Of a stretch of 58,371 bases of DNA, positions 1,418 to 54,217 are shown one piece after another; the first letter of the stretch is position 1; the number at the start of each line of letters is the position of its first letter. The notes under the pieces were generated by a model that made no database searches, was not told where the DNA came from, and saw only the letters and a list, made by a program, of their open reading frames with translations. Origin of the DNA: Sashavirus BDX09P1; sequence record OZ035775.1; one strand, given 5' to 3'. Made by a program: the position numbers and the translations under genes.

Positions 1418-1460
1418 AATTTACAATTCCTTGTGTAAACCGTCAAGAATTATTTTAAAT
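1418..1460 (-). promoter_or_regulatory. sigma70-like promoter P1 (conserved motif copy)
   Basis: Minus strand reads TTTAAAATAATTC-TTGACG-17 bp-TAAATT; AT-rich UP-like element. Confidence 0.6.
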
Positions 1461-1483
1461 AAAAACCCCGGTTAGTTCCGGGG
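1456..1483 (-). terminator. intrinsic terminator after 1493-1828
   Basis: CCCCGG-ttagtt-CCGGGG hairpin followed on minus strand by a T-run; overlaps UP element of P1. Confidence 0.55.
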
Positions 1484-1492
1484 TAATGTTCA

Positions 1493-1828
1493 TTATTCGC
1501 CCAACGCTTCTTTCAGTAACCGATACGTTTCAGGACATTTATCGGATCCGCGTTCACGTTCATAAGCTGCGCTAATAACATCCCAGTTTTCAATCACGCC
1601 TTTAAACGCCGGACACTTTTCAGCAATCAATGGAAAACTGTTTCTGATTTCCGGTACAGCTTCAACCAGGAACCAGCAACGGCGAAAATCGGAAACGTCA
1701 AGGGGTGCTCTAAACTCCCAGTCGTAACCCATTTCATTACCCGTGTGAATACAGACCATCGTTTTAGAACTTAGTCCGGTTTCACCAGAACATAACCACT
1801 GAATAATACGTTCCTGTTCTGTTTTCAT
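1493..1828 (-). CDS. hypothetical protein
   Basis: Track ORF, 111 aa, sits between terminator and next gene. Confidence 0.45.
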   Translation of the reverse strand: MKTEQERIIQWLCSGETGLSSKTMVCIHTGNEMGYDWEFRAPLDVSDFRRCWFLVEAVPEIRNSFPLIAEKCPAFKGVIENWDVISAAYERERGSDKCPETYRLLKEALGE

Positions 1829-1988
1829 TTCGTATCACCTATCATGAGCAAACAATCTGGTGTGTTAATCCAGAAACGATCACCAACATCCGGGGAAGCA
1901 TCCCAGGGCATCTTTTCAGTTACTTCCAGTTCAAGATCACCACGGGTATTTTCAGCGATAATTTTTACAGGTACACCGTCATAGGTAC

Positions 1989-2903
1989 TCATCGTTTTGC
2001 CTCCCCGCCGAGTGCCACCACAAGTTGTTTAATCAGCGCCTGAAGTTCACCTGTCATTAGTACAAAATCAGCGTCAAATCGTGCCAGAACATCTTCAAGG
2101 TCAATATCGTCATTCTGTCCGATCAGTCCATCACAGAACTTCACACGGTTTAATGTCATGCTGTCAGTTAGCGTAAACGTTACCCGCTGCTGCCAGTCCA
2201 GAGCCAGCTTTGTAACGACTTTCCCGGCTTCAATATGCGTGGCTATTTCGTCACTGGTTAAATCCTGTTTTTTAACGCGTGCAACACCGCCATCAGTCAG
2301 GATTGCTTTCAGTTCAGCAGAATCACCCATTGTGAAACCTGTTGGCGCGTTTCCTGAACGTACCCACTCCGTTGTTGTCAGTTCAACAGGGTTTTCAGTT
2401 GTCAGTGGGACTACAGGCAGACTACCCAGACTTTTACGCAGCAGTGCTAATGCATCTTCAGCCCGTTTAGCACTGGACGCATCAACCACGATTAACCCGT
2501 TAGTGATATCAATCCACAACTGTGTACGACTGTTTTTAACGAATGCTCGTGGTAACAGACTGTGCAATACTTCATCTTTCAGGCTGTCTTTCTCTGTTTT
2601 CTTCAGTTTACGCGCCTGTTCAGCTTCCAGTTTGGCGATTCGCGCGTTCAAATGCTGTTTAATGACCGGACCCGGAATAATCTTTTCCTGTTTCTGGATG
2701 GTCAGCAGATATTGCCCGTTAGCCTGGTGAACCAGCGTCTGATGTTGTTCAGTTGCCGGAACCCAACCAGTACGCACCATATCCTGTGAACCGCACGGAT
2801 TGAATTGAAACGCACACAGGCTGTCTTCCAGTGTTGGCAACTGGGCCATTAATGCCATAGGATTAGTCAGACGATAAATAATTGCGTTTTTAAAGAAGTT
2901 CAT
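1989..2903 (-). CDS. rdgC: recombination-associated protein RdgC homologue
   Basis: 304 aa; N-terminus [12 protein letters not shown] and overall length match my recollection of enterobacterial RdgC (MLWFKNLMVYRL...); from memory, not searched. Confidence 0.75.
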
Positions 2904-3097
2904 AGTTCAATGTCCTGTGGTTTGATAGTAACTTTTCCGTCAAGAACAACAGTGTTTACACCACTTAGTTTTTGTTCTTCGTATAAATCAAGTTCAACAT
3001 TAATTCCGACGATTGAGGCTTCGTGTATCGCACAGTTTAACTGTTTAATGAGGTCTGAAATTCTACGCTGATAATCTTGTGCTTCTGATAGTTTCAT
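2900..3097 (-). CDS. hypothetical protein
   Basis: Track ORF, 4-bp start/stop overlap with neighbours (operon packing). Confidence 0.4.
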
Positions 3098-3291
3098 ACA
3101 CCACCTTCATTTTTAACATATTCAGCAACTAAATCTTTGACTTCTACAATTTTAACATCACCATTATGATCAACCTCAATATGACAGTGACCATAACGCG
3201 CCGCTGTTAACCTGGCGTCGTTCAGTATTTTTAAATCTTTCAATACTTGTTCAATTGCTTGTTGTTTAATCACAGATTCGTGTACAGTCAT
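3094..3291 (-). CDS. hypothetical protein
   Basis: Track ORF in tightly packed minus operon. Confidence 0.4.
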   Translation of the reverse strand: MTVHESVIKQQAIEQVLKDLKILNDARLTAARYGHCHIEVDHNGDVKIVEVKDLVAEYVKNEGGV

Positions 3292-3521
3292 TTCCGTCTC
3301 CTTCTTTTCTTCGCCTCGCGTCGGGCTTTTGCAACACCTGTTTTACGATGTGGTTGTTTACGATCAGTAATAATTCCTTGTGGTGGAACACCCCATAAAG
3401 TATTGTTCAGACCATAATCATCTACCGAATAATACAAACCGTTAGCGGTGATAATTACATTTGGGTCGTACCCAGTAATTTTCCGAAAACAGTTGATAAT
3501 TGTTGTTTTTGTACTAATCAT
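3288..3521 (-). CDS. hypothetical protein with poly-basic C-terminus
   Basis: Track ORF; C-terminal KARREAKKRRRRK. Confidence 0.4.
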   Translation of the reverse strand: MISTKTTIINCFRKITGYDPNVIITANGLYYSVDDYGLNNTLWGVPPQGIITDRKQPHRKTGVAKARREAKKRRRRK

Positions 3522-3783
3522 ACGTTCACCACTTTTAAATCAGGTGTCAGGCTACGATGGTCATGATGACCGTTCATAGTAAATGAGAAAGTGTAATCGC
3601 ATTGCTCACCGTCGAACGTGAAGGGGATTTGAAACCCTGTATCGTCAGTGATGCGAACTTTAACCGGGTATTCAGCTTGCGGATCGACTGCTACAACAGT
3701 GCCGAACGGTTGAGATTTGCGACGTGCGAGAATTTCTAACAGTCGTGGACTGGTGATTTCCACGTGTTGACCAGTTTTAAACA
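3518..3783 (-). CDS. hypothetical protein
   Basis: Start moved to ATG (MFKTGQ...) with GGAG RBS, downstream of P2. Confidence 0.4.
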
Positions 3784-3816
3784 TGGTGATAACTCCAGTT
3801 GTTTTACACAAACTGA

Positions 3817-3858
3817 AGTCTATCTGATAATGTGTAAACCGTCAAGAATTATTTTAAA
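3817..3858 (-). promoter_or_regulatory. sigma70-like promoter P2 (conserved motif copy)
   Basis: Minus strand TTTAAAATAATTC-TTGACG-17-TAGACT. Confidence 0.6.
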
Positions 3859-4026
3859 CTGTCCGTCACTATCTGCGGCGTAACAAATACCGTGACTGTA
3901 GATTGTCGCAGTTCGTGTAATGCGTTGATAGTCTGAACATTGGTTACGAATACGCAGGTCGTAACCGGACTGTATGATCAGCAAGGTTGCAATGATGGCG
4001 AGTAACTTTAAAACGTATCTGAACAT
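3820..4026 (-). CDS. hypothetical membrane/secreted protein
   Basis: Hydrophobic N-terminus MFRYVLKLLAIIATLLII. Confidence 0.35.
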   Translation of the reverse strand: MFRYVLKLLAIIATLLIIQSGYDLRIRNQCSDYQRITRTATIYSHGICYAADSDGQFKIILDGLHIIR

Positions 4027-4087
4027 GTTCCACACTCCTGTTTGATAGTTTCAGGGTAGTGTGGAACTGGTGAAGATGGTATAGGAT

Positions 4088-4486
4088 TTACGATAATTTA
4101 ACAGTTAATCCGGCGTTGGTCAGGACGTTACACACGTCGCGAACACCAGCATTATATCCGTCTATAAGTGTTGCAGGTGAGTTAATACAGATACCAACAT
4201 GTTTCGGTAATTCAATTACCAACTGTTCCCGGCTGGCTTTCCACATGTCCCACGCGCGATTCAAACGATCGCCTTCTTCCACGGTGTACTCGTCATCTTT
4301 CCTTAATTTTTCTAAGACGTTTTTTGGTGTTCCGTATTTGTCTGAATAACACGCTTCAAACTGTTCACGACTCTTATCCACTTTTTCAACCCTCCAGCCG
4401 TATTTAGCATGACTCATAGCGGTCCGTTCATCATTCGTGGTGAACATTACGCGTCCGGATTTATGACAAATATTCCAAGTCGTCAT
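4088..4486 (-). CDS. hypothetical protein
   Basis: Track ORF, 132 aa. Confidence 0.45.
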   Translation of the reverse strand: MTTWNICHKSGRVMFTTNDERTAMSHAKYGWRVEKVDKSREQFEACYSDKYGTPKNVLEKLRKDDEYTVEEGDRLNRAWDMWKASREQLVIELPKHVGICINSPATLIDGYNAGVRDVCNVLTNAGLTVKLS

Positions 4487-4538
4487 TTCGTTAATACACC
4501 AATAATGAAAATTAGCATGTAGAATAAAACATTACGGG

Positions 4539-4697: not shown

Positions 4698-4704
4698 AGT
4701 TCTA

Positions 4705-5225: not shown

Positions 5226-5611
5226 TAACCCCTTTTAATCTTCCCCAATGCTTGTTGCACAATCTGCCAGGACGATAACATGAATAATTGCGCGTATTGC
5301 CCCGTGGTCTGGTGATGAAATACTCACATGATTTTCAACCCACCCTTCATCTTTGAACCACGGTAATTGTGAACATTTCATACTCATGATCCTCTTGTTT
5401 TTTGTTTAGTGACAAGATATCTCTTCAACCCGTCGCAACTAATTTCACAATCCCCGCAGGAACCACCATCCAACCAGATGATGCATAGTGTGTGATTTCG
5501 TGGGGTGAGTTACGCTTTACACTCACCGTAGCGCCTGACAATCAGCGGTATTTTCGGCCGGACAATTCCGGGTTACTACATACTTGGTCAGGTATCTTGT
5601 CTATGACAACA

Positions 5612-5653
5612 ACTATACAGATACATAAGCAATCTGTCAAGAATTATTTTAAA
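5612..5653 (-). promoter_or_regulatory. sigma70-like promoter P3 (conserved motif copy)
   Basis: Minus strand TTTAAAATAATTC-TTGACA-17-TATAGT; lies inside the track's 5' extension of the terminase ORF. Confidence 0.65.
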
Positions 5654-5716
5654 CATCTGTCACAACCAATCACCCGTGGTAAACTGTACAGAACAGTTAC
5701 AAACGGGCCGATAACC

Positions 5717-7480: not shown

Positions 7481-7521
7481 ACAGTGTGGCGGGATTATTC
7501 CCGTCATTTTCTTTTTAATTC

Positions 7522-7553
7522 TTGACAAATTACATTATAAATGTTTGTAAATT
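7522..7553 (+). promoter_or_regulatory. promoter-like variant of conserved motif
   Basis: TTAATTC-TTGACA-AATTAC resembles motif core without full UP element; -10 uncertain (TAAATT about 20 bp downstream). Confidence 0.35.
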
Positions 7554-7640
7554 ATCTGTTAGATTAATGTAACACGTCTATACTCCTGCAGGTAACCAAT
7601 CGGTTACAGTTAATTAACATTCTCTCACAGGAGTTTCAAC

Positions 7641-8339: not shown

Positions 8340-8351
8340 TTGGTCAACTAA

Positions 8352-8373: not shown

Positions 8374-8389
8374 AACAGGAGATAAGAGT

Positions 8390-11116: not shown

Positions 11117-11157
11117 AGCATAACTGCGTATCTGTAATCAGTCAAGAATTATTTTAA
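11117..11157 (-). promoter_or_regulatory. sigma70-like promoter P4 (conserved motif copy)
   Basis: Minus strand TTAAAATAATTC-TTGACT-17-TATGCT. Confidence 0.6.
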
Positions 11158-11227
11158 CACCGTGCAAAAAAACCATCACTGATATAACATACGTTAAGAA
11201 CCGTAAACCGTATGGAGCCTGTAGAAC

Positions 11228-13338: not shown

Positions 13339-13380
13339 AGGTTACACGTCCTTGTGTAATCCGTCTAGAATTATTTTAAA
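13339..13380 (-). promoter_or_regulatory. promoter P5 (variant motif, TAGAC in place of TTGAC)
   Basis: Minus strand TTTAAAATAATTC-TAGACG-17-TAACCT; ~50 bp context shared with P9. Confidence 0.45.
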
Positions 13381-13619
13381 TTGTCATAGACAGGCGGTAA
13401 GCCCATTGCGGCCTGTACAGACCGTTTTTCGTATTCCTCCCGAAGTTTCTGAAGCTGTTCAATACCGATGTCACAACCACGTATGATATCAGCGCACAGG
13501 TCGTTGTAGGTCGCTTCAGATTGCTTGCTGTGTGGGTAATCAACACAGGATGGATCTGCAATAATGACTTTCGGTAGATATGCGACAGTATCGCCCATTG
13601 CGTTTTTAAATATCGTCAT
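13371..13619 (-). CDS. hypothetical protein
   Basis: Track ORF. Confidence 0.35.
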   Translation of the reverse strand: MTIFKNAMGDTVAYLPKVIIADPSCVDYPHSKQSEATYNDLCADIIRGCDIGIEQLQKLREEYEKRSVQAAMGLPPVYDNLK

Positions 13620-13945: not shown

Positions 13946-14445
13946 ACCCTTCCTGTTGATCCAAACCCGCCATTACGCTGACTATCAACATCTGGTAATT
14001 CTTCCACTTCAACCAGGTTAACAGGTTCGACACGTTCAACCATGATCTGACAAACACGTTCACCGTCTGCGATAGTCTGTAATTTCTGCCCGTGGTTAGT
14101 CAGCGTAACGTAGTATTCTTCTTTGTAATCACGATCACCAATACCCACACAGTTGATCAGTGACAAACCGTGTTTAAGACTCATGCCGGAACGTGGGTAA
14201 ATTTTAATGCAATATCCGCTATCAACTGACATTTTCAGACCAGTGGGAATCATAGCGCGGTCGCCGGGCCATAATGCGATTGTTCCTGCAACAACCGGAC
14301 GTTCCACTTTAGCGCCCGATTCTGTGAATATAGTTACCGATTCTTCCCACAGGCAAGCACGAACGTCTAACCCGGCGCTGTCTGGTGTTGCACGTGTCGG
14401 AAGTTCAGCGTGGGGTGTTAGTTTTTTGATATACAGGTTAGTCAT
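13942..14445 (-). CDS. dut: dUTP diphosphatase
   Basis: dUTPase motifs: AGLDVRA, PRSG, GVIDxDYxxE-like IGDRDYKEEY, C-terminal GGFGSTG. Confidence 0.85.
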   Translation of the reverse strand: MTNLYIKKLTPHAELPTRATPDSAGLDVRACLWEESVTIFTESGAKVERPVVAGTIALWPGDRAMIPTGLKMSVDSGYCIKIYPRSGMSLKHGLSLINCVGIGDRDYKEEYYVTLTNHGQKLQTIADGERVCQIMVERVEPVNLVEVEELPDVDSQRNGGFGSTGRV

Positions 14446-14479
14446 TGTTTGATTCCTCAGTGTGTTTCGTTCGTGACAA

Positions 14480-14521
14480 ATGTTAGTGTTACTGCTTGCA
14501 ATGTGTCAAGAATTATTTTAA
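14480..14521 (-). promoter_or_regulatory. sigma70-like promoter P6 (conserved motif copy)
   Basis: Minus strand TTTAAAATAATTC-TTGACA-17-CTAACA, GAGGAA RBS then dut ATG. Confidence 0.55.
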
Positions 14522-14552
14522 ACTTCTGTCAACGTTAACCAATGAGGAATAA

Positions 14553-14861
14553 ATGATGTTTGAACATCCGTGGAACATACCTGCATATGATGCTGAAAGT
14601 GAAAAACAATCACTTGACTATCAAATGAAAACACAACAAGTAGACTGGAGTGAAGCGCCAGACTGGGCTACATGTGTTGTTCTTAATAAGACAACAAACA
14701 CTTTTGCATGGTCTGACGGTTCAATGTACGCACCAATTTTAAGAAATCCACCACAAATTATGGAGAATGCTGATGACTTTGAAATCTTTGAAAAAACGCC
14801 CTTGTGGTCCAGCAACACCTGTCAAAACAAAACTGTTAATGACACCGAAAGCCCGTGGTAA
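14553..14861 (+). CDS. hypothetical protein
   Basis: Track ORF; GAGGAA RBS. Confidence 0.4.
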   Translation: MMFEHPWNIPAYDAESEKQSLDYQMKTQQVDWSEAPDWATCVVLNKTTNTFAWSDGSMYAPILRNPPQIMENADDFEIFEKTPLWSSNTCQNKTVNDTESPW

Positions 14862-15312
14862 CACTTATGAAGAATTCATCGCAACCGGGTGGAACGACGA
14901 CCAGTTAGTCGAACATGGTTATGCTATTCGTATTACAGACAAACGTTCCTGGTCACCAATGACCGTCGGAACTGAAACAATTACACCACCTTCAAATTGT
15001 CGGTGTACATTCACCCCTGTTCAACAACCATCAACAGCGTCTGACTTACTGAAACAGGCTGAACAGCTACTGACAGAACGTGGTAAGCAGTATGACACGT
15101 ATGGTCAGGAACGTTCGTCAGCTAAAATCGTTGCTGCGTTTAACACAATTACCGGGCGTGACTTAACACCAGGTGAAGGGTGGTTATTCCTGATGCTGTT
15201 AAAAGCGGTTCGTTTCTATTCCAATACTGAAACACCACATCGTGACAGTCTGGAAGACTTGATCAGCTATGCTGCATTACATGCAGAGGAATATCTTAAC
15301 AATGAACGGTGA
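14767..15312 (+). CDS. hypothetical protein carrying a TYEEFIATGWNDDQLVEHGY motif (start uncertain)
   Basis: Track ORF; true start may be the internal ATG near 14842; motif shared with C-terminus of the DUF2815-like protein. Confidence 0.4.
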   Translation: MLMTLKSLKKRPCGPATPVKTKLLMTPKARGNTYEEFIATGWNDDQLVEHGYAIRITDKRSWSPMTVGTETITPPSNCRCTFTPVQQPSTASDLLKQAEQLLTERGKQYDTYGQERSSAKIVAAFNTITGRDLTPGEGWLFLMLLKAVRFYSNTETPHRDSLEDLISYAALHAEEYLNNER

Positions 15313-15678: not shown

Positions 15679-15823
15679 AAAATTATTACGTGAACTTGAA
15701 ATAGACTACGAACGAGCGCAAAAAGCGTTACAGTTTCTGGAAGAACAGATCCGCGAAGTTAAGAACCGCATTCAGGGAACTGAAAAACGTAATCTTCCAC
15801 GCCCGTAACACGTGATATAATCG

Positions 15824-19028: not shown

Positions 19029-19056
19029 ATCTCCTTTTTTTCTTCCCGTTAACCAC

Positions 19057-19098
19057 AAGATAGTCGTGTTGGTGTAATCCGTCAAGAATTATTTTAAA
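19057..19098 (-). promoter_or_regulatory. sigma70-like promoter P7 (conserved motif copy)
   Basis: Minus strand TTTAAAATAATTC-TTGACG-17-TATCTT. Confidence 0.6.
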
Positions 19099-19103
19099 GA
19101 TAC

Positions 19104-19190
19104 AGCTAATACAGAATGTGTATTAGCTACACATGGTTTTACATAGGTTTCATGATTTTGAGTTGCAGCTAATACAGAACGTGTATTAAT
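19104..19190. promoter_or_regulatory. two palindromic operator-like sites
   Basis: AGCTAATACA-gaatg-TGTATTAGCT (perfect 10-bp arms) and an imperfect second copy ~60 bp away. Confidence 0.4.
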
Positions 19191-19203
19191 AGATCATAAA
19201 TTC

Positions 19204-19335
19204 ATAGATTTCGTCATGTTTATTTTTCAACCAACCACTCTCTATCTTATTCTTTTTATTATCTTTTTATAGAAAACATAATAAACATAGATAAACAGAA
19301 GAGTAGTATAAGTAGTAAAAGTTGCTGCAAGTAGG
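19204..19335. repeat. AT-rich dispersed element, copy A
   Basis: ~130-150 bp clearly alignable with 58021-58175; first ~60 nt roughly 90% identical by eye. Confidence 0.6.
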
Positions 19336-19382
19336 AGAGGTTTAAAAGGTATAGGGAGTCGCATACTTCCCATGAATCTATA

Positions 19383-19424
19383 CGTAAAATAATTCTTGAC
19401 GGATTACATCGACACAACTACCCT
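19383..19424 (+). promoter_or_regulatory. sigma70-like promoter P8 (conserved motif, plus orientation)
   Basis: TAAAATAATTC-TTGACG-17-TACCCT leading the structural operon. Confidence 0.5.
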
Positions 19425-19454
19425 GTGGTCAAGAAAACAAGAAGGGTTGAATGT

Positions 19455-19823
19455 ATGGATCCGAACATTAGAGTTGCCACAGACGAATTCATTCGTCGCG
19501 CCTGTAAAATTCACGGTGATCGTTACGACTACTCATTCAGCATTGTTGAAGATAGTTCCAGCACAGTGGTTATTATTGACCGTGAAACTAACACAGTGTT
19601 TTTCCAGGTTGTCGCTGAACATCTGGACGGTGTTGAACCAGTAACGACTGCTGTTGAACCAGTAACGACTGCTGTTGAACCAGTAACGACTGCTGTTGAA
19701 CCGATCAAGAATCTTTCTGAGATATTCGGTAACGTTGCAAACAGCGTGTATCACCAGTGCAATTATTCATCTGAAATGTTAGAATTTAGTCATGTTGAAA
19801 CAATACGAGGACAATCCCCGTGA
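19455..19823 (+). CDS. hypothetical protein with EPVTTAV repeats
   Basis: N-terminal DEFIRRACKIHGDRYDYSFS motif shared with triple-repeat protein 28318-28959; three in-frame EPVTTAV repeats. Confidence 0.45.
   Translation: MDPNIRVATDEFIRRACKIHGDRYDYSFSIVEDSSSTVVIIDRETNTVFFQVVAEHLDGVEPVTTAVEPVTTAVEPVTTAVEPIKNLSEIFGNVANSVYHQCNYSSEMLEFSHVETIRGQSP
19632..19703 (+). repeat. 21-bp in-frame tandem repeat (about 3.4 copies)
   Basis: GTTGAACCAGTAACGACTGCT repeated head to tail. Confidence 0.8.
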
Positions 19824-27269: not shown

Positions 27270-27331
27270 GTTGCGTAATTTGTACAGAACTATTACTATC
27301 TAATCGTCTACTACATAAAAGGTAAAAAACC

Positions 27332-29170: not shown

Positions 29171-29212
29171 AGGTTACACACCATTGTGCAATCCGTCAAG
29201 AATTATTTTAAA
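29171..29212 (-). promoter_or_regulatory. sigma70-like promoter P9 (conserved motif copy)
   Basis: Minus strand TTTAAAATAATTC-TTGACG-17-TAACCT. Confidence 0.6.
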
Positions 29213-29274
29213 CATTTGTCGCTTTTTAGACCCGTGTTAAACTGTGTATATGCTTCGTGAAAAGGTTAACCACA

Positions 29275-36179: not shown

Positions 36180-38285
36180 TTATGCACTATTAGCAGGCCT
36201 GTCTAAGTACCATCCGTAGTTTGTTTTAGTCAATTGTATAAGCTCCCCATTTGTTTTGTACTGAGTAACACCATGCGACGTATTGTACATTATTCTGTCA
36301 TTAACAGAAACGCCGGGTGCCTGTTTTACAAGGGTAACTTCTGTAAGTGATGAAAGTGGCAGTATACGTATTGTTTTACCTATATATCCACCGGTTATAT
36401 TAGTGATTAGTGAGCCAGAAGTCGCTGAGTCGAGATAAAATAAATCCACCACATCGGCATTAATGGTTGAAACAACTGAATTTACGGTAGAAGTTGTTGC
36501 AGCGTTTTCCCTTACGAAAGACGATCCGTTCCAGCGGTACATTAACCCATCTGAAAGCCCAATAACCTTCTCATTAACCCTAATATCATGCGCGTAAGTT
36601 TTAGACGTGTCCACTATTTTAAAAGTACCGCAAAATGGAACGGGAATAATAGTCGAGCTAGTTAAACGGTTAACAGTATAAATGGCGTTGTTCACTGTCC
36701 ACTGCCGCCCGTTCCATACACTCATGAAAGCCCCTGACGACAAAAGAACAGTAGAGCTATATCCGGTTTCAACATGCACAGACTCAGACAATAACCCTTT
36801 ATCTTGTGGGTTACTGAAATCGTTAGTGCAATCAAATAGTCTTAAGTTAGCGCGTCCCTCGAATTGGCCTGTAGGACCAATAGGGGCCACAACGAAAAGA
36901 TAATCCTTATCAAAACCATAATCAGGGCCAACGCGTAAGAACGACGCCATACAGTTAGTGGTAGGGAACTGTCCTTTTACAACCCACTTTCCACTAGAAT
37001 CTTGCATTAATAGCTTTTGAATGGCTATTTTGTACGGCTTAGTGGTCGTATCTACTGCGCGCTCAATGGCGAACGGTGTTCCGTCATAGAAGTTTCCAAA
37101 GCCAATTTCGCCGCCAGATGTGCCGAGAGTATCGGTATCAGTGTCTTTTCTAACATCCTCACCGTAGGCGTAGTTACCGCTATCATCAATTGTGATATAC
37201 CCCTCAACTATTCCGGTAGATAGTTGAGTTAAATAATAATAAGGAATTGCAGGCTTGCCGTTTATGTACCCGACTTGTGTAGGTGCAATTGATGAGAAGT
37301 AAGCACCAGATGGTTTAACCAATGGCGTAATATCAACAGGGGTGCTCCATGTATTGCCACCATCCTTTGATACGACATATTCAATAGTTGATGTTGTGTC
37401 AGGGTTAGTTCCTTGTTGTGCATGCCCCCACCCAGTAATCCCCTTCATTGATGTAAAGAAACAATACAAATATCCATCAAGATTATTTAGAAATAGTACC
37501 GTTTCAGAAGTGGCATATCCTGGCCCTTTGTTAACAACAGTTCCAGTGGTCCAGTTCACACCGTTATCATCAGATATTAGGTAATCAATGTGCATAGGTG
37601 TGCCGTCCTGTCCTGGGTCAATATTGGCACCATCCTTCACTGTATATATACATACCACCCGCCCACTTGGAAGTGACACCGCTTTTGGTGCAAAGTTAAA
37701 TACATTCTCTACATAAGTTTGCAACTGTAAGCGCAAATTATTGTTAAAGCTTCTTGAGTATTTATTCCCAAAAGTGAAATTAAATCTATTTTTTGCAAAT
37801 GATTGCCTTTTGTAAAGCTCAAAATCTTTATCCTTGACTGCTCCGTTAACTAAATCAACTCCGTCATCATCAGCCAAGTCACTTCTTAAACTTGCATCAC
37901 CAACACTAACCCACGCGCCAAGACCAACGCCACCAGCAGTTTCAGGTGTTGAACCAGAAGAAACGGTTTTAGGAAATTCACCGTCCCATCGGTAATATTC
38001 TCCTGTCGACTTATATCGCAACACCTGGTTAGGTAATGTTAATGTCGCACCATCTTCAAAGCTATCCATTGTAATATAACCGACCTGAGATATAGCCAGA
38101 TTATACAGATTTTCTAAACCATCCAGTGTTTTGTTAGTAACTGATTCGCCACGGATTGTATCGGTTGCTTCCAGTGCAGGTTTACCGGTAGCGTCACGAC
38201 TTTTCGCAACGTGTTCAATATGTAAAATCGCTTGTTTGCCTGTTTTCAAATCATCAGCACTGATATAATCGTTACAGTTAGCCAT
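36180..38285 (-). CDS. tail fibre / tailspike with sialidase-like Asp-box (BNR) motifs
   Basis: Two S-x-D-x-G-x-x-W motifs (SDDNGVNWT, SKDGGNTWS); ~700 aa; GGAGA RBS at ATG 38285. Confidence 0.6.
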   Translation of the reverse strand: MANCNDYISADDLKTGKQAILHIEHVAKSRDATGKPALEATDTIRGESVTNKTLDGLENLYNLAISQVGYITMDSFEDGATLTLPNQVLRYKSTGEYYRWDGEFPKTVSSGSTPETAGGVGLGAWVSVGDASLRSDLADDDGVDLVNGAVKDKDFELYKRQSFAKNRFNFTFGNKYSRSFNNNLRLQLQTYVENVFNFAPKAVSLPSGRVVCIYTVKDGANIDPGQDGTPMHIDYLISDDNGVNWTTGTVVNKGPGYATSETVLFLNNLDGYLYCFFTSMKGITGWGHAQQGTNPDTTSTIEYVVSKDGGNTWSTPVDITPLVKPSGAYFSSIAPTQVGYINGKPAIPYYYLTQLSTGIVEGYITIDDSGNYAYGEDVRKDTDTDTLGTSGGEIGFGNFYDGTPFAIERAVDTTTKPYKIAIQKLLMQDSSGKWVVKGQFPTTNCMASFLRVGPDYGFDKDYLFVVAPIGPTGQFEGRANLRLFDCTNDFSNPQDKGLLSESVHVETGYSSTVLLSSGAFMSVWNGRQWTVNNAIYTVNRLTSSTIIPVPFCGTFKIVDTSKTYAHDIRVNEKVIGLSDGLMYRWNGSSFVRENAATTSTVNSVVSTINADVVDLFYLDSATSGSLITNITGGYIGKTIRILPLSSLTEVTLVKQAPGVSVNDRIMYNTSHGVTQYKTNGELIQLTKTNYGWYLDRPANSA

Positions 38286-42112: not shown

Positions 42113-42151
42113 TGTTATCGCCTCAATAAGTTTTAAATAATTCTATACGGT

Positions 42152-44008
42152 TTACCGAAGTGGTGCAACGAGTTTTTCAGCTTCTTTGATGTAAAAATCA
42201 TAATTGAGTGTTGCCCGGTTAAAACGTTTCATGTCGTTGCACTCAGTGGTCAACCAACCTTTACACACTGACATACGGCGTTCAGGCGCATCAGGGTTCA
42301 GTTTCAGTGATTTTGCCAGCGGTGGCATGACTTTTGTTAATGGTGCACCATCTGTGCTGACATAATAACGGGTAATGTTCTGAACCTGTTTGTCACCCCA
42401 TAACAACTTGCTGTTACGCGGCACTTTCGTCACCAACATAAAATCGTGAATATCGTCGTGTGATGTTATAAAATCACGAATATCTTTATTATGTACCAGT
42501 GCTGCTTCAGCCGCTTTTGCGACAACCTGCATACTGTGGTTTTGATGCCAACCAAGGTCAACGCTGTGACAATAAGCGCCTTTACGTTTAACTTTCTTAC
42601 CACCTTCGTAAACAGCGATGTAGTTGTTTACGTCGCGAATAAACATCACGTCATAAATCGCTTCTTCAAGCTGGAGTCTGGTTAATTTTTCCCACGCGTG
42701 ACGAACCTGTTCTACTTGTCCGGTAAACACTCGTGGTACGTAAACCGTAAGACCATCTGTGTTAGCCTGGATCATGGACAAACCAGGGATTTTCAGAAGT
42801 TCTTCAGCCAACATGCACAAAAGTAACTGTCCATTAATCGTAATAGCCATTGTATAAGCAGGATCGTAGAATGGACTGTATACGTTATTACTGTCACCAT
42901 ACACACCGTTTAACGCCAGTTTTAACATTGCATTTTCTGGTGTACCTTTCGGGTAACTGGAACGCATGTCGTAAACATTTTTATAAATGGTGCAAAATTG
43001 TTTTCCCAGATGTGCCGGATAAAGTTCATTACTGATCGCAAGGTTCGGGTAAAAACTGGCAACGTCCAGATCGATGATCACATAATTTTCACTGGACCTG
43101 ATAGTTTGAGACTCAATAGACCCGTGGATACCACCCGTACCAAAATCAAACGAGAACCCGTTAATGTCTGCACTTAAATCTGTAAATACACCTTTTGTTT
43201 CAGTGATGACCTGTTGACGTAACCAGTTAAGAACACGATTAAATTCAGGCTGTTCAAAACGGACATAAGGGAAAATCACGCTGTTTAATGCGATTGATAG
43301 TCTGTGCGTCTGTCGTGGTTTTCTACTACCCGGTTCGAAACATTGAATACCTGATTTTTCAAGTTCCATGATGAAATAGTCTTTACCGATTTTCGTGTCG
43401 TTATGGTTCATGAAATTACGACCGTATTTAGCAGAAAGTTCACGACGAAAATCTATCAGCTTTTTACTGTGTTTATAAAACATCAAAGTCGCTTTCAAAT
43501 CGTGCATCAGATATTGACGAAGCGTATCAATTTGAGAATCGGTTAAATAAGTCCCTGGTGTAAACGGAAGGTCTTCAATGTTTTCCATTCTCATATTGAA
43601 TTCAAGTGTTTTCAGACTTGTTCGTTTTGCCTGATTGTCGAAATGATGAATTTTGTACAAATCAAGCTGGGGAACTATCCAGTCTTTTTCCCACACCATA
43701 TGAGCAAAACGATTTTCATCACCGGCGTTAATTATCGAATCGCCTTTTTTGTAAATGTCTGCGTTGGTGATATACATGATGTTGTTCAAAATAGAATGCT
43801 GAACAGGATAGTCGTAACCCAGATTGTTATAACCAACTTCTTCAGCACGATGTTCACGCAAATATTCCGTGAAGAAGTAAAAAGCCTGACGATCATCGCG
43901 ACGATTTGAAATCTCAAAAATATAAGGCGTTTCAGTTAACGCGTGAATAGCACCGAACAGGAAAACATTAGGATAGTTTTCAATATCGTGAACGTAAGTA
44001 TCTGACAT
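42152..44008 (-). CDS. DNA polymerase, compact exonuclease-less type
   Basis: Motif-like strings DLDVASFYPNL, KLALNGVYGDSNN, QANTDGLTV in polymerase A/B/C order; family A versus B not resolved. Confidence 0.6.
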   Translation of the reverse strand: MSDTYVHDIENYPNVFLFGAIHALTETPYIFEISNRRDDRQAFYFFTEYLREHRAEEVGYNNLGYDYPVQHSILNNIMYITNADIYKKGDSIINAGDENRFAHMVWEKDWIVPQLDLYKIHHFDNQAKRTSLKTLEFNMRMENIEDLPFTPGTYLTDSQIDTLRQYLMHDLKATLMFYKHSKKLIDFRRELSAKYGRNFMNHNDTKIGKDYFIMELEKSGIQCFEPGSRKPRQTHRLSIALNSVIFPYVRFEQPEFNRVLNWLRQQVITETKGVFTDLSADINGFSFDFGTGGIHGSIESQTIRSSENYVIIDLDVASFYPNLAISNELYPAHLGKQFCTIYKNVYDMRSSYPKGTPENAMLKLALNGVYGDSNNVYSPFYDPAYTMAITINGQLLLCMLAEELLKIPGLSMIQANTDGLTVYVPRVFTGQVEQVRHAWEKLTRLQLEEAIYDVMFIRDVNNYIAVYEGGKKVKRKGAYCHSVDLGWHQNHSMQVVAKAAEAALVHNKDIRDFITSHDDIHDFMLVTKVPRNSKLLWGDKQVQNITRYYVSTDGAPLTKVMPPLAKSLKLNPDAPERRMSVCKGWLTTECNDMKRFNRATLNYDFYIKEAEKLVAPLR

Positions 44009-46852: not shown

Positions 46853-46893
46853 ACTTTAAAAGGTGTTGTGTAATCTGTCAAGAATTATTTTAC
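46853..46893 (-). promoter_or_regulatory. sigma70-like promoter P10 (conserved motif copy)
   Basis: Minus strand TGTAAAATAATTC-TTGACA-17-TAAAGT. Confidence 0.6.
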
Positions 46894-46915
46894 ACTCGCC
46901 TTTCGTTGATGCAGA

Positions 46916-46956
46916 TGTTAGAGGAATAAGTTGCAATGCGTCAAGAACTATTTTAA
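46916..46956 (-). promoter_or_regulatory. sigma70-like promoter P11 (tandem second copy)
   Basis: Minus strand TTTAAAATAGTTC-TTGACG-17-CTAACA. Confidence 0.5.
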
Positions 46957-46990
46957 ACTTTTTTCACGATTCGATATTACAGGGTAGAAA

Positions 46991-48652: not shown

Positions 48653-48693
48653 TGGTAATCTGCATAGAAATATTTTAAACGTAAGGAACTGTA

Positions 48694-49355: not shown

Positions 49356-49358
49356 ATT

Positions 49359-51713: not shown

Positions 51714-51730
51714 TCATTGCACAAGGATGT

Positions 51731-51772
51731 GTAAAATAATTCTTGACGAATTACAGATGTGTGCGCTATAGT
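51731..51772 (+). promoter_or_regulatory. sigma70-like promoter P12 (conserved motif, plus orientation)
   Basis: TAAAATAATTC-TTGACG-18-TATAGT. Confidence 0.65.
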
Positions 51773-51803
51773 CTGTACATCAAGTGAACAAGGAGTGATT
51801 GTT

Positions 51804-52016
51804 ATGAAACCACGCTACCGGTTAATGAGACTTTCACAGTGTCCTAACGGAACACGGTTTTATTTTTATCGTCTGAAGCAACTATTACCTTTCACGTTAA
51901 TTGCTAACAGCTTCAAGAAACACGAAAGTATTTATCATGAAGGTCACGATTTTAACATAACCGCGCGAAAATACAGAACGTCTATTCATAAATTTGTATG
52001 GGCTAAGGTGAACTAA
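51804..52016 (+). CDS. hypothetical protein
   Basis: AGGAG RBS 8 bp before ATG. Confidence 0.4.
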   Translation: MKPRYRLMRLSQCPNGTRFYFYRLKQLLPFTLIANSFKKHESIYHEGHDFNITARKYRTSIHKFVWAKVN

Positions 52017-52017
52017 A

Positions 52018-52293
52018 ATGAAAATTGTCGATGCAGAATTTAGTTACATTGGTGATTTTAAAAATGGTTGTGAAATTAAGTCACCGTGTGAAGTTGTGTA
52101 TTATAACCGTAATCATTATAAATGGTGTGGTGATTTCCCAAAAATAGTCCCTGCTGGTTCAAGTCCTATTGTAACTGGTGGTATTGGTAAAAACGGATGG
52201 GTACCAATTACAACAAACAACGATGTGCGTAACGTCTGGTTACCACAGGTTATTTTAATTGGTATTTGTTTGCTTGTTTTATTTTTATGGTGA
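52018..52293 (+). CDS. hypothetical protein with C-terminal TM
   Basis: Track ORF; C-terminal VILIGICLLVLFLW. Confidence 0.4.
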   Translation: MKIVDAEFSYIGDFKNGCEIKSPCEVVYYNRNHYKWCGDFPKIVPAGSSPIVTGGIGKNGWVPITTNNDVRNVWLPQVILIGICLLVLFLW

Positions 52294-52354
52294 ACTAATT
52301 CTGGGTATGGTCTATGTCAAAATTCTATCCTGAATACAGGAAAGGTAAAAAACC

Positions 52355-52552
52355 ATGAAAAACATATTTGACCGTTTAATTACTGTTATTGTTTTCCTTG
52401 TATCAGTAACGCTCGCGTCTTGCATTGTCGGACTAATGACCCGTGGTAATCATGCGGAAACACCGTGGTGGTTTCTGGCTGGTCTTGGATTATTAGCGGC
52501 TGCTGCATCAATTGGCGCTTGCATGTGGGGAGTGAAAAATGATCATGACTGA
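52355..52552 (+). CDS. small membrane protein
   Basis: Two hydrophobic segments. Confidence 0.4.
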   Translation: MKNIFDRLITVIVFLVSVTLASCIVGLMTRGNHAETPWWFLAGLGLLAAAASIGACMWGVKNDHD

Positions 52553-52760
52553 GTTCGGTGCTGTAATCAAAAAAGAAGACCGTTATGCACATATTAATAC
52601 CCGGATTACCTGGGTTGATATCAGTGAAGCTACTCTGTTCAGTTCAACTTACATGGCTGGTGTTGCACTTAAAGCACTTCGTGATCAAGGTTTCAATTGC
52701 AGAAAAGTAACAATTGCGCCTGTTAAAATCACGCGGATCGTCGAGGAGACAGAAGGATGA
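52539..52760 (+). CDS. hypothetical protein
   Basis: Track ORF. Confidence 0.35.
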   Translation: MIMTEFGAVIKKEDRYAHINTRITWVDISEATLFSSTYMAGVALKALRDQGFNCRKVTIAPVKITRIVEETEG

Positions 52761-53437
52761 AAATTGTCTGGTCATTATTCGACGGTTCCGGGATTATGGG
52801 CTTACCGTGGGCGATACATGGATATCAGGTTTATTGTTTTAATGCTGATTCTGCTAATCACGGGGAATACTTTATTAAAGCTGATCACCCCAATCTTCAT
52901 TACGTTAATCAATGGATTGATCCACAGTTTGCAATTAAGCAGGAAATACTGGGAACACCTTTACCGTCAATTATTTTCGGCTTCCCGGATTGCACCCTGT
53001 TTGCTCAAAGCGGTTCGCAACATGACCGGGATGACGCTGAACTACAGTATGCACTGGCAAACGCAAAACTGATCCGTGAACTCGGAGAACGTTATAACGT
53101 ACCCTGGATGATCGAAAACCCTGTCGGTGCTTTATCACGTCCTGAAATGATGGGGACACCTGACGCTTATTTTCATCCGTGGGAATATGGCGGTTATATG
53201 ACAACAGATGATAAACCTTTTCACCCTAAAATGCCGATGTTTGACGGATACACGAAGAAAACATGTCTGTGGTTCGGTAACGGTTTCAGAATGCCTGAAA
53301 AACGTCCCGGACCGATTAATATTGGTTTCTTCTGGGGCTGGAAATATCTGGGTGGTAAATCTGAAACAACTAAACAGTTACGTTCATTAACCCCGCGTGG
53401 CTTTGCTCGCGCTGTATTTGAGGCTAATAAACAATGA
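52757..53437 (+). CDS. compact C5-cytosine methyltransferase-like protein
   Basis: Motif I-like LFDGSGIMG, motif IV-like GFPDCTLFAQSG (Cys retained, PCQ replaced by DCT), motif VI-like IENPVG, motif IX-like RSLTPRGFARAV; only 226 aa so little or no target-recognition domain. Confidence 0.5.
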   Translation: MKIVWSLFDGSGIMGLPWAIHGYQVYCFNADSANHGEYFIKADHPNLHYVNQWIDPQFAIKQEILGTPLPSIIFGFPDCTLFAQSGSQHDRDDAELQYALANAKLIRELGERYNVPWMIENPVGALSRPEMMGTPDAYFHPWEYGGYMTTDDKPFHPKMPMFDGYTKKTCLWFGNGFRMPEKRPGPINIGFFWGWKYLGGKSETTKQLRSLTPRGFARAVFEANKQ

Positions 53438-53829
53438 TAATAGTCGTTACAGGCGGTCGTGACTTCAACGACAGAACAGCGGTATTTTCAGCATTAGGGT
53501 TACTTCACAAACAATTCCCGGTTACCGAACTGATTGAAGGCGGTGCATCAGGTGTTGATAACCTGTGTAAGCAATGGGCGCAATTACACGGTATTCCTGT
53601 CCGCAGTTGTCCAGCAGCGTGGAACGATCTGACAGTGCCGGGTGCAGTAGTCAAACAAGGTAAGAACGGGCCTTATAACGCTGTTGCAGGTCATCAACGT
53701 AATCAGGCGATGTTAGAGGGTGAGCCACGTCCTACATATGGTGTTGTGTTCCCCGGTGGTCGTGGTACTGCTGATATGCACCGTCGCATGTTGAAAGCTG
53801 GTTTAACTGTGTGGGTTCCATATGGTTGA
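53434..53829 (+). CDS. SLOG/DUF2493-like protein
   Basis: N-terminal IIVVTGGRDF and GGASGVD pattern. Confidence 0.45.
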   Translation: MIIVVTGGRDFNDRTAVFSALGLLHKQFPVTELIEGGASGVDNLCKQWAQLHGIPVRSCPAAWNDLTVPGAVVKQGKNGPYNAVAGHQRNQAMLEGEPRPTYGVVFPGGRGTADMHRRMLKAGLTVWVPYG

Positions 53830-54184
53830 TGCGTATCATATTACTAAAGTGGAAAACCGTGAAAGTATCCTGATGAAAGGTATCGTACCGGGGATAAAAC
53901 TTCTTCGTGGTGATCTTGATTTTCAACGTGGGTTAGGTGTTCCCATCCGTTCCTGTGGTTATGATAAGTTATACGGTTTTCACCCCGTGTTCATTACCTT
54001 TAATCCTGTTGAGGCTATATCAATAATGGGTTATCGTGGTTCTGCTGATGAATGGTGTGTTGCTGTTATAAACGCTACTAATTTACAACATAAACCCGGT
54101 CGTTTTTCGTGGGAGTCAATCACTGATTATGTACCTGCTGATTGTATAAAACGTTTCGAACCGCTGACCAACTTCTTAAAATAA
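53822..54184 (+). CDS. hypothetical protein
   Basis: Track ORF. Confidence 0.4.
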   Translation: MVDAYHITKVENRESILMKGIVPGIKLLRGDLDFQRGLGVPIRSCGYDKLYGFHPVFITFNPVEAISIMGYRGSADEWCVAVINATNLQHKPGRFSWESITDYVPADCIKRFEPLTNFLK

Positions 54185-54217
54185 TTCTTGACAGATTACC
54201 AACCTTCTCCGATAATT
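54176..54217 (+). promoter_or_regulatory. sigma70-like promoter P13 (conserved motif, plus orientation)
   Basis: TAAAATAATTC-TTGACA-17/18-GATAAT. Confidence 0.6.

What the first reader, a model, noticed from the sequence alone, without database searches (positions are those of the whole stretch)
1418..54217. One ~25-bp promoter motif reused at least 13 times with strict strand logic
TAAAATAATTC-TTGAC-rGATTAC(A) followed 17-18 bp later by a -10-like hexamer occurs at P1-P13 (1418, 3817, 5612, 11117, 13339, 14480, 19057, 19383, 29171, 46853, 46916, 51731, 54176). Its orientation always matches the downstream gene strand. Conservation extends well beyond what sigma70 needs (UP-like AT tract and the GATTAC just after -35), hinting at a phage or host factor co-recognising these promoters. 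Several copies directly abut terminator hairpins, giving terminator-promoter tandems.
Basis: seen in the sequence. Interest (0 to 1): 0.55.

Follow-up and report, generated by a model that had tools for sequence, protein, structure and literature searches.

The report
Repeated early promoter of 9NA-like phage
A 27-base promoter sequence is reused 13 times around this 9NA-like E. coli phage genome to switch on its non-structural gene clusters with the host's RNA polymerase; this is an ordinary kind of phage element, but a 6-base box next to the -35 site is kept unchanged for no known reason.

Summary
All 13 copies sit at the stated coordinates. Eleven share an exact 16-mer, TAAAATAATTCTTGAC, and no shuffle comes close. 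The window is a complete 9NA-like (Nonanavirus/Sashavirus) E. coli siphophage genome.

Each copy has:
- an A-rich tract at -46..-36;
- TTGACr at -35;
- an ATTrCA box at -28..-23;
- a 17-18 bp spacer;
- a variable TAnnnT -10;
- in 10 of 13 copies, a 24-29 nt leader to a ribosome-binding site and start codon on the same strand.

The same block occurs in Salmonella, E. coli and Klebsiella relatives. Orthologous copies differ at 8.6% of block positions, against 47-56% in the DNA touching the block. A Proteus relative keeps the A-tract, TTGAC and AGATTACA, so the extended conservation is selected.

The best reading is a family of host sigma70 promoters for early, non-structural genes. Late genes carry a different promoter type with an extended -10. 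This is a new member of a known kind, comparable to T4 early promoters.

The terminator-promoter tandem claim holds for only one of the 13 copies. What reads the ATTrCA box is unknown, and no phage transcription factor was found. The copies also mark mosaic module borders, and a Yersinia CRISPR spacer targets the motif.

The parts
1418..1460 (-). P1. Block plus TTGACG-17-TAAATT. Drives small genes starting at 1382. Abuts the upstream terminator at 1465-1484.
1465..1484 (-). Intrinsic terminator hairpin (ACCCCGGAACTAACCGGGGT followed by a T run). It ends the P2 transcription unit. Its T-tail runs into the P1 A-tract.
3817..3859 (-). P2. TTGACG-17-TAGACT. Lies inside the 3' end of ORF 3820-4026. 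Drives 3784 down to 1493, including the RdgC-like gene.
5612..5654 (-). P3. TTGACA-17-TATAGT. Has a ~224-nt leader. Back-to-back with the terL late promoter.
5673..5685 (+). Late-type promoter of terL with an extended -10 (CCCGTGGTAAACT). Its -10 lies 25 bp from the end of the P3 block.
7509..7534 (+). Partial 14th copy. It has AATTC-TTGACA-AATTACA, but the A-tract is replaced by the T-tail of the terL terminator (7486-7507). No good -10 at 17-18 bp.
11117..11159 (-). P4. TTGACT-17-TATGCT. Divergent from the portal gene.
11177..11188 (+). Late-type promoter of the portal gene with an extended -10 (CACTGATATAAC). Its -10 lies 24 bp from the P4 block.
13339..13381 (-). P5. TAGACG-17-TAACCT. The TAA inside the motif is the stop codon of the upstream ORF. 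The spacer carries the palindrome TTACAC-N6-GTGTAA.
14480..14523 (-). P6. TTGACA-18-TAACAT. Drives the dUTPase cluster.
19057..19099 (-). P7. TTGACG-17-TATCTT. It is one arm of a 48-nt inverted duplication with P8.
19382..19424 (+). P8. TTGACG-17-TACCCT. Drives the orphan gene 19455-19823 and then the head genes. This copy is absent from 9NA and Carvaje.
29171..29213 (-). P9. TTGACG-17-TAACCT. Drives a superinfection-immunity-like gene and an HNH/T5orf172-like endonuclease gene. Back-to-back with the tape-measure late promoter.
29231..29243 (+). Late-type promoter of the tape-measure gene with an extended -10 (CCCGTGTTAAACT). Its -10 lies 24 bp from the P9 block.
46853..46895 (-). P10. TTGACA-17-TAAAGT. 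Drives the replication and recombination genes 46820 down to about 39712.
46915..46958 (-). P11. TAAAATAGTTC-TTGACG-18-TAACAT. In tandem 63 bp upstream of P10.
51729..51772 (+). P12. TTGACG-18-TATAGT. Lies directly after the primase gene. Drives 51804-54184.
54174..54216 (+). P13. TTGACA-17-GATAAT. The motif's TAA is the stop codon of the upstream ORF. Drives the ParB-like gene 54251-55018 and onward.
42133..42156 (+). Degenerate copy TTAAATAATTCTATAC-GGTTTACC. The -35 is destroyed (TTGAC to TATAC). Antisense to the flanking minus-strand genes. Identical in 9NA and Carvaje.
48654..48677 (-). Degenerate copy TAAAATATTTCTATGC-AGATTACC between the helicase gene and the next plus-strand gene. Antisense to both. 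Conserved in 9NA and Carvaje as ...TTCTAAAC.

Best explanation
The 13 copies are a phage-specific family of promoters used by the host sigma70 RNA polymerase. They express the non-structural, presumably early, gene clusters of a 9NA-like virulent siphophage.

**Proposed mechanism (inferred from anatomy).**
- Sigma region 4 binds the near-consensus TTGACr at -35.
- An alpha C-terminal domain binds the A-tract TAAAATAAT at -46..-38. This resembles a proximal UP-element subsite.
- The -10 hexamers are deliberately non-consensus and differ from copy to copy (TAACCT, TATAGT, TACCCT and others). Recruitment would therefore be driven from upstream, and each unit's strength tuned at the -10.
- Transcription starts about 7 nt after the -10. 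A short CA-rich leader of 24-29 nt then leads to a ribosome-binding site.

**Shown here.**
- The block is present and far beyond chance.
- Its geometry and orientation fit a promoter.
- It is under strong purifying selection across host genera.
- It is restricted to this phage group.

**Inferred, not shown.**
- That the A-tract acts as an UP element.
- That these genes are expressed early.

**Two additional roles are likely.**
- At terL, portal and the tape-measure gene, the same AT tract lies at about -38..-51 of a divergent late promoter with an extended -10. It may serve both promoters of a back-to-back pair.
- The invariant block marks borders between conserved and exchangeable gene modules.

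The ATTrCA box at -28..-23 is selected as strongly as the -35. It lies where I know of no base-specific sigma70-RNAP contact, so its reader is unknown.
For: **Statistics.** Exact or near-exact copies far exceed chance.

**Geometry.**
- The -10 sits at 17-18 bp in 13 of 13 copies, against about 1 of 141 other TTGAC sites.
- The predicted start is 24-29 nt from a Shine-Dalgarno sequence plus start codon in 10 of 13 copies.
- Every copy points into a same-strand gene run, most of which end at a strong terminator.

**Polymerase.** No RNA polymerase-sized unassigned ORF or recognisable sigma factor was found. The large ORFs match terminase, portal, tape measure, tail, polymerase, helicase and primase.

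**Selection.**
- 47 unique copies in five genomes keep TAAAATAATTCTTGAC and ATTrCA, while the -10 and spacer vary.
- Orthologous copies differ at 8.6% in the block, against 46.5% and 55.8% in the flanks.
- The Proteus phage Isfahan has gTTTAAAATATnGC-TTGAC-AGATTACA.

**Gene classes.**
- Downstream genes are small unknowns, RdgC-like, dUTPase, recombination and replication genes, a methyltransferase, a ParB-like gene, and superinfection-immunity plus endonuclease genes.
- Structural and lysis genes carry conserved TGnTAwAMT-type promoters instead.

**Specificity.**
- The 21-specified-base pattern occurs in only 3 loci among 185,579 species genomes, and one of those is a CRISPR spacer.
- In IMG/VR it occurs in multi-copy contigs of up to about 61 kb. 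One is 52,869 bp, the length of the 9NA genome.
Against: - There is no experimental start-site or expression-timing data for any 9NA-like phage in the searchable literature.
- The A-tract matches only the proximal UP subsite, and imperfectly.
- The -10 hexamers are weak for supposedly strong promoters.
- P8 precedes the head genes, so the family is not purely 'early'.
- P3 has an unexplained 224-nt leader.
- The invariant ATTrCA box is not accounted for by sigma70 contacts. Host RNAP alone may therefore not be the whole story.
Confidence: 0.8

Rival explanations
1. The block is a composite of promoter and operator. A phage-encoded or virion-injected protein binds the ATTrCA box, and perhaps the A-tract, at every copy. 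This would let it shut off, or boost, all early units together. It is compatible with the copies being sigma70 promoters.
For: - ATTrCA at -28..-23 is as invariant as the -35 in 47 copies. It is retained in the Proteus clade, where the bases between the A-tract and the -35 have changed.
- In P1, P2 and P5, and imperfectly in P9, the box is the left arm of an inverted repeat (TTACAC-N6-GTGTAA). Its right arm overlaps the -10, as an operator would.
- Two degenerate copies keep the flanks but lack a -35.
Against: - No recognisable DNA-binding regulator was found among about 50 proteins. The only leads are a ParB-like HTH that has no match in the loaded parts of the relatives' genomes (their ends were not fetched) and a weak anti-repressor-like N-terminus.
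- The apparent dyad TAATTC-N5-GGATTA is not kept in the Proteus variant.
- The inverted repeat is exact in only 3 of 13 copies against 5% background. Those copies look paralogous.
Confidence: 0.3
2. The uniformity is maintained mainly by recombination, as with the PeSL cassettes of T4-like phages. The block would be a portable homology patch at which gene modules are swapped and copies homogenised. Promoter activity would be secondary.
For: - Homology to relatives breaks in 10 of 11 motif-bearing intergenic intervals, against 32 of 90 other gene junctions (Fisher p = 6e-4). Several breaks fall inside or within 6 bp of the block.
- P7 and P8 are an inverted duplication.
- P5 and P9 share spacer and leader sequence.
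- P8 and P9 accompany inserted orphan or endonuclease genes.
Against: - Gene conversion within one genome cannot explain identity of the block across Salmonella, E. coli and Klebsiella phages while the adjoining 10-bp spacer differs at 56% of positions.
- It also cannot explain retention of separate sub-elements in the Proteus clade.
- The junction enrichment is confounded. Motif-bearing intervals are longer and lie at borders between late and early modules.
- Only one copy has the stem-loop that defines a PeSL.
Confidence: 0.12
3. The motif is not a promoter. It would be a signal for something else, such as replication, packaging or a nucleoid-protein site.
For: - Two conserved degenerate copies lack a -35 and lie antisense to their neighbours.
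- There are no experimental start-site data.
Against: - The copies obey a strict orientation rule and have a -10 at the right spacing.
- They keep a fixed 24-29 nt distance to ribosome-binding sites and include a consensus -35.
- They are spread through the non-structural gene clusters, not clustered as origin or pac sites usually are.
Confidence: 0.03

Closest known systems
Bacteriophage T4 early promoters, the 'uber' UP/-35/TGn/-10 promoters (Hinton 2010, PMC2988021)
   Same: - Many near-identical promoters for host sigma70 RNAP are dispersed over a virulent phage genome.
- They have an excellent -35 plus an UP-like A-tract.
- They show extra regions of consensus beyond the known RNAP recognition elements, and the purpose of those regions is unknown.
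- They drive non-structural genes.
   Different: - There is no TGn extended -10 here, and the -10 hexamers are weak and variable.
- The extra conserved element is a discrete ATTrCA box just downstream of the -35.
- No Alt, ModA, AsiA or MotA homologue was recognised.
- The phage is a 58-kb siphovirus unrelated to T4.
PeSL (promoter-early stem-loop) cassettes of T4-like phages (Arbiol 2010, PMC2839356; Comeau 2014, PMC4122927)
   Same: A conserved early-promoter sequence recurs at the borders of variable small-gene modules and coincides with insertion, deletion and replacement junctions between related phages.
   Different: The defining terminator stem-loop fused to the promoter is present at only 1 of the 13 copies, plus the partial 14th. 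A recombination role is suggested here by junction statistics only.
UP-element-dependent sigma70 promoters such as rrnB P1, and the strong early promoters of T5 and T7 (A1-A3) (from my own knowledge)
   Same: An A/T-rich tract directly upstream of a consensus-like -35 would recruit alpha-CTD. Promoter strength would come from upstream contacts.
   Different: Only the proximal subsite region (-46..-38) is conserved here. The sequence is fixed almost base for base across about 50 copies and several host genera, which is much tighter than UP elements require.
Phage-specific repeated regulatory elements found by repeat-based scans such as PHIRE (from my own knowledge)
   Same: It was found the same way, as the only highly repeated 11-20-mer in the genome. 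It lies in or next to intergenic DNA and is oriented with the genes.
   Different: None in kind. This is another instance.

Membership tests
sigma70 -35/-10 promoter | -35 hexamer close to TTGACA | tested here: met
   TTGACr in 12 of 13 copies and TAGACG in P5.
sigma70 -35/-10 promoter | -10 hexamer with A at position 2 and T at position 6, 17 +/- 1 bp after the -35 | tested here: met
   All 13 copies have a -10-like hexamer with A at position 2 and T at position 6, at 17 bp (10 copies) or 18 bp (3 copies). It is TAnnnT in 12 and GATAAT in P13. About 1 of 141 other TTGAC sites has TAnnnT there.
sigma70 -35/-10 promoter | Oriented toward a gene, at a plausible distance from its start | tested here: met
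   13 of 13 are co-oriented with the downstream gene. The leader is 24-29 nt in 10 of 13.
sigma70 -35/-10 promoter | Transcription start mapped experimentally, or holoenzyme binding shown | not testable with these tools
   No transcript data were found for 9NA-like phages.
UP-element promoter | A/T-rich alpha-CTD site between -38 and -59 | tested here: inconclusive
   TAAAATAAT at -46..-38 is invariant, but nothing is conserved at -59..-50. It fits the proximal subsite consensus, which I recalled from memory, only partly. Binding was not tested.
T4-type early promoter (UP/-35/TGn/-10) | TGn extended -10 together with a consensus -10 | tested here: not met
   The alignment shows no conserved TG at -15/-14, and the -10 hexamers are non-consensus.
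PeSL cassette | Terminator stem-loop fused directly upstream of the early promoter | tested here: not met
   This holds only for P1 (1465-1484) and the partial copy at 7509-7534. The other 12 copies have no terminator-like hairpin abutting them.
PeSL cassette | Located at insertion, deletion or replacement junctions between related phages | tested here: met
   10 of 11 motif-bearing intervals carry a homology break, against 32 of 90 others, p = 6e-4. The comparison is confounded by interval length and module borders.
Dimeric repressor operator | Conserved dyad symmetry within the block | tested here: not met
   TAATTC-N5-GGATTA is symmetric at 5 of 6 positions in the enterobacterial clade. It is symmetric at only 2 of 6 in the Proteus variant. 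Spacer palindromes occur in only 3-4 copies.

The most novel reading that the evidence does not exclude
The ATTrCA box at -28..-23 is invariant in about 50 copies. It is retained from E. coli, Salmonella and Klebsiella phages through to Proteus phages. It lies where I know of no base-specific sigma70-holoenzyme contact. It could be read by an unrecognised phage protein, encoded or injected, that acts on RNA polymerase bound at the adjacent -35. Alternatively it could reveal an undescribed RNAP-spacer contact. Either way, this phage group would have a private promoter class, switchable as a set.
Probability: 0.25. Interest if true: 0.6.

Novelty: new member of a known kind. Interest (0 to 1): 0.35.

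Why it matters
**What it gives the field.** It provides a transcription map for an understudied phage group (9NA, Sasha, Bas82 KarinMuster, Klebsiella Carvaje-like phages). One invariant promoter class drives the non-structural gene clusters that interrupt the structural genes. A second class, with an extended -10, drives late genes.

**Practical uses.**
- The block is a compact, portable promoter-leader cassette likely to work in E. coli, Salmonella and Klebsiella.
- It is a diagnostic marker for this phage group in metagenomes.
- It is a conserved multi-copy target, and at least one natural CRISPR spacer already uses it.

**Open question.** If the ATTrCA box turns out to bind a factor, it would give a simple handle on how a small siphophage coordinates early gene shut-off.

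Tried and rejected
**Scans that gave nothing.**
- A generic sigma70 consensus scan is not enriched over shuffles (47 vs 43, 32 vs 37, 29 vs 37). Only the extended motif stands out.
- CGTGATATAAT, tried as a general late motif, is not enriched genome-wide (17 matches vs 21 expected). CCCGTGNTAAAMT is enriched (32 vs 10), but many of its hits are in coding sequence.
- Rfam at gathering thresholds and tRNA scans returned nothing, so the long P3 leader matches no known RNA family.
- Pfam and PHROGs on about 50 proteins found no sigma, anti-sigma, ADP-ribosyltransferase or clear repressor.
- The first IMG/VR scan, with the 16-mer alone, returned mostly single chance hits in unrelated contigs. It was replaced by the 21-specified-base pattern.

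**Comparisons made by eye against consensus sequences I recalled from memory.** These were not tool tests.
- Alternative sigma factors: sigma32, sigma54, sigma28, sigmaE.
- Host factors: Fis, IHF, CRP/FNR, Lrp, MarA-type, DnaA, CytR and LacI-family, TyrR.
- The lambda cII direct-repeat pattern and GANTC/GATC methylation sites.
- None fitted.

**Readings considered and dropped.**
- Reading TAAAAT inside the motif as a -10, or the reverse complement as a promoter, fails on spacing.
- A dyad-operator reading of the block is not conserved in the Proteus variant.

**Relatives.**
- The Vibrio relative (portal 42% identical) has no copy of the motif.
- The 12-copy repeat AAAGTGAAACA in Proteus phage Isfahan is clustered, not dispersed, so it is a different element.

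**Literature.**
- The key paper, Zeng et al. 2019 (J Virol 93:e00848-19, PMC6819911), is not held. I could not check whether it already describes this motif.
- No held paper contains the 16-mer.

Full report
**What the window is.** The 58,371-bp window is a complete genome of a 9NA-like siphophage (Nonanavirus/Sashavirus).
- It is 97% identical over about 77% of its first 25 kb to Escherichia phage vB_EcoS_PJ16.
- It is similarly close to AVIO78A, Bas82 KarinMuster and PDP46, and about 85% identical to Salmonella phage 9NA over the first 25 kb compared.
- It is about 79% identical to Klebsiella phages such as Carvaje.
- As described for 9NA (PMC4153490), the structural genes are in canonical order on the plus strand. 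They are interrupted by blocks of small genes, mostly on the minus strand.

Eleven carry the exact 16-mer TAAAATAATTCTTGAC and two have one mismatch.
- 0 of 100 shuffles reach the observed counts.
- A weight matrix built from the 13 copies scores them 38-46 bits, against 11.9 or less in shuffled genomes.
- This is the only 11-mer family with 5 or more copies in the genome.
- Aligned, the conserved block is gTT-TAAAATAATTC-TTGAC-rG-ATTrCA, spanning -49..-23 if TTGACr is the -35.

**Promoter geometry.**
- A -10-like hexamer follows at 17 bp in 10 copies and at 18 bp in 3. It is TAnnnT in 12 copies and GATAAT in P13.
- Only about 1 of the 141 other TTGAC sites in the genome has TAnnnT at that spacing.
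- All 13 copies point into a run of same-strand genes.
- In 10 of 13, a Shine-Dalgarno sequence and start codon lie 24-29 nt after the predicted start. The exceptions are P3 (224-nt leader), P7 (92 nt) and P11 (in tandem 63 bp upstream of P10).
- Most of the units end at strong intrinsic terminators.
- Generic sigma70-like matches are no more frequent than in shuffles, so it is the extended motif that is special.

- Only P1 abuts a terminator (1465-1484).
- The other terminator-promoter tandem is a partial 14th copy at 7509-7534(+), after the terL terminator. There the terminator's T-tail replaces the A-tract, and no good -10 follows at 17-18 bp.
- Two further degenerate copies score 21-26 bits: 42133-42156(+) and 48654-48677(-). 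They keep both flanks but have TATAC or TATGC in place of TTGAC. They lie antisense to their neighbouring genes and are conserved in 9NA and Carvaje.

**The extended conservation is selected, not a relic of recent duplication.**
- The same block occurs 9-13 times in each genome examined: the window (complete), the first 50 kb of PJ16, 9NA and Carvaje, and the first 30 kb of AVIO78A.
- Across 47 unique copies, chosen only by the 16-mer, ATTnCA at -28..-23 is as invariant as the -35. The -10 hexamers vary and are non-consensus: TAACCT, TATAGT, TACCCT, TAACAT, TATCTT, TATGCT.
- For seven groups of orthologous promoters, pairwise differences are 8.6% in the block. They are 46.5% in the 26 bp upstream and 55.8% in the 10 bp of spacer directly adjoining.
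- Proteus phage Isfahan (portal 60% identical) has a variant, gTTTAAAATATnGC-TTGAC-AGATTACA. It keeps the A-tract, TTGAC and the ATTACA box but changes the bases between them.
- A Vibrio relative (portal 42% identical) has none.
- The 21-specified-base pattern occurs in only 3 loci among 185,579 species genomes.
- In IMG/VR it occurs in multi-copy contigs of up to about 61 kb. One is 52,869 bp, the length of the 9NA genome. It is a signature of this phage group, not a host promoter type.

**What the copies drive.**
- Downstream genes include small unknowns, an RdgC-like protein, dUTPase, the recombination and DNA-polymerase cluster, a methyltransferase and a ParB-like protein.
- They also include a superinfection-immunity-like gene paired with an HNH/T5orf172-like endonuclease gene.
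- Structural and lysis genes are preceded by a different conserved sequence, an extended -10 without a -35:
  - terL CCCGTGGTAAACT (5673);
  - tape measure CCCGTGTTAAACT (29231);
  - gene 57823(-) CCCGTGGTAAAAT;
  - portal CACTGATATAAC (11177);
  - head morphogenesis CGTGATATAAT (15811);
  - holin ACTGATATAAT (38259).
- Most of these are kept in PJ16, AVIO78A, 9NA and Carvaje; the tape-measure CCCGTG context is lost in 9NA and Carvaje.
- I therefore infer two classes: the 13-copy motif for early, non-structural genes, and the TGn type for late genes.
- P8, which precedes the head genes, is an exception with a history. It is a 48-nt inverted duplicate of P7. It comes with an orphan gene and is absent from 9NA and Carvaje.

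**Back-to-back architecture.**
- At terL, portal and the tape-measure gene, the late -10 lies 24-25 bp beyond the ...TTTTAAAC end of the reverse-complemented block. The motif's AT tract then sits at about -38..-51 of the divergent late promoter.
- The same spacing recurs at four Isfahan promoters.
- One AT tract may thus act as an UP-like element in both directions. That would explain part of the constraint at those copies, though not at the ten without a partner.

**What remains unexplained.**
- The ATTrCA box lies where I know of no base-specific sigma70-RNAP contact.
- An apparent dyad across the -35 is not conserved in Proteus.
- In P1, P2 and P5, and imperfectly in P9, the box begins an inverted repeat (TTACAC-N6-GTGTAA) that reaches the -10. 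This looks operator-like, but it is rare and probably paralogous.
- About 50 phage proteins gave no recognisable transcription factor.
- A co-recognising factor is therefore possible, at roughly 0.25-0.3, but unsupported.

**Module borders.**
- Homology to relatives breaks in 10 of 11 motif-bearing intergenic intervals, against 32 of 90 other junctions (p = 6e-4). Several breaks lie within the block.
- This resembles PeSL-mediated shuffling in T4-like phages (PMC2839356, PMC4122927).
- The test is confounded by interval length and position. The defining stem-loop is present at only one copy.

**Comparison and verdict.**
- The closest analogue is the T4 early promoter family. Those are many strong sigma70 promoters with UP-like tracts and 'additional regions of consensus' of unknown purpose (PMC2988021).
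- The present family differs in lacking TGn, in its weak -10s and in its discrete ATTrCA box.
- It is a new member of a known kind.
- I could not read Zeng et al. 2019, the main genomics paper on these phages, so prior description cannot be excluded. No held paper contains the 16-mer.

Noticed in passing
L128:1152-1175(-) (Yersinia pekkanenii NZ_CQAZ01000023.1): One 32-nt spacer of a CRISPR array reads TTAAAATAATTCTTGACGTATTGCACTGATGT. The array has at least 27 repeats of GTTCACTGCCGTACAGGCAGCTTAGAAA, which look type I-F-like. The first 24-25 nt of the spacer match the promoter block. The spacer matches copies in the window, 9NA and Carvaje with 4-5 mismatches. A host has therefore taken a spacer from this multi-copy conserved element.
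   Followed up: partly
window 5673-5685(+), 11177-11188(+), 15811-15821(+), 27273-27290(+), 29231-29243(+), 38257-38269(+), 57844-57856(-): A second conserved promoter class lies in front of the structural and lysis genes. It has an extended -10 (TGnTAwAMT), often preceded by CCCG, and no -35. terL and the tail chaperone share GTACAGAAC just after the -10. Most are conserved in PJ16, AVIO78A, 9NA and Carvaje; the tape-measure one keeps only GTTAAACT in 9NA and Carvaje. The Vibrio relative has a comparable CGTGATATACT family.
   Followed up: partly
window 42133-42156(+), 48654-48677(-); also 9NA (L122) 38218+, 45064-, 22617-; Carvaje (L123) 37907+, 44717-; Isfahan (L124) 22791-, 36697-: Every degenerate copy carries the same change, T to A at -34 (TTGAC becomes TAnnC). 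In the enterobacterial clade this creates TAGAAT on the opposite strand, in the sense direction of the flanking genes. These copies may be 'flipped' weak internal promoters or factor sites without initiation. The pattern is not random decay.
   Followed up: partly
window 1418-1446, 3790-3845, 13339-13367, 29171-29199: In P1, P2, P5 and (imperfectly) P9, the ATTACA box is the left arm of an inverted repeat whose right arm overlaps the -10. The forms are TTTACA-N8-TGTAAA, TTACAC-N6-GTGTAA and TTTACACA-N20-TGTGTAAA. This is operator-like. It is exact in 3 of 13 copies, against 5% background.
   Followed up: partly
window 19049-19432: P7 and P8 form a 48-nt inverted repeat (88% complementary) with 288 bp between the arms. 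That AT-rich stretch has no ORF. It holds two copies of the palindrome CAGCTAATACAGAAyGTGTATTA (19104-19128 and 19164-19188). Related TATTAGCTGTA words recur upstream of terS near the window ends. This may be a regulatory or pac-related region.
   Followed up: no
window 5382-5611(-): P3 is followed by about 224 nt before the next minus-strand gene. The start of this leader (CATAGACAAGATACC...) is conserved in 9NA. No Rfam family matches, and no ORF of 38 aa or more was called there.
   Followed up: partly
window 13371-13378 and 54182-54184: The TAA inside the motif (TAAAATAATTC) serves as the stop codon of the upstream ORF at P5 and P13. P2 lies wholly inside the 3' end of ORF 3820-4026.
   Followed up: yes
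L124 (Proteus phage Isfahan) 13429-13974 and 39808-40075: Twelve copies of AAAGTGAAACA are clustered in two intergenic regions, in both orientations. They look like iterons or operators and are unrelated to the promoter motif.
   Followed up: no
window 14553-15312(+): The gene that is a single 219-aa ORF in PJ16 (14086-14745) appears here as two overlapping ORFs, 14553-14861 and 14767-15312. This could be a frameshift, a pseudogene or a sequencing error.
   Followed up: no
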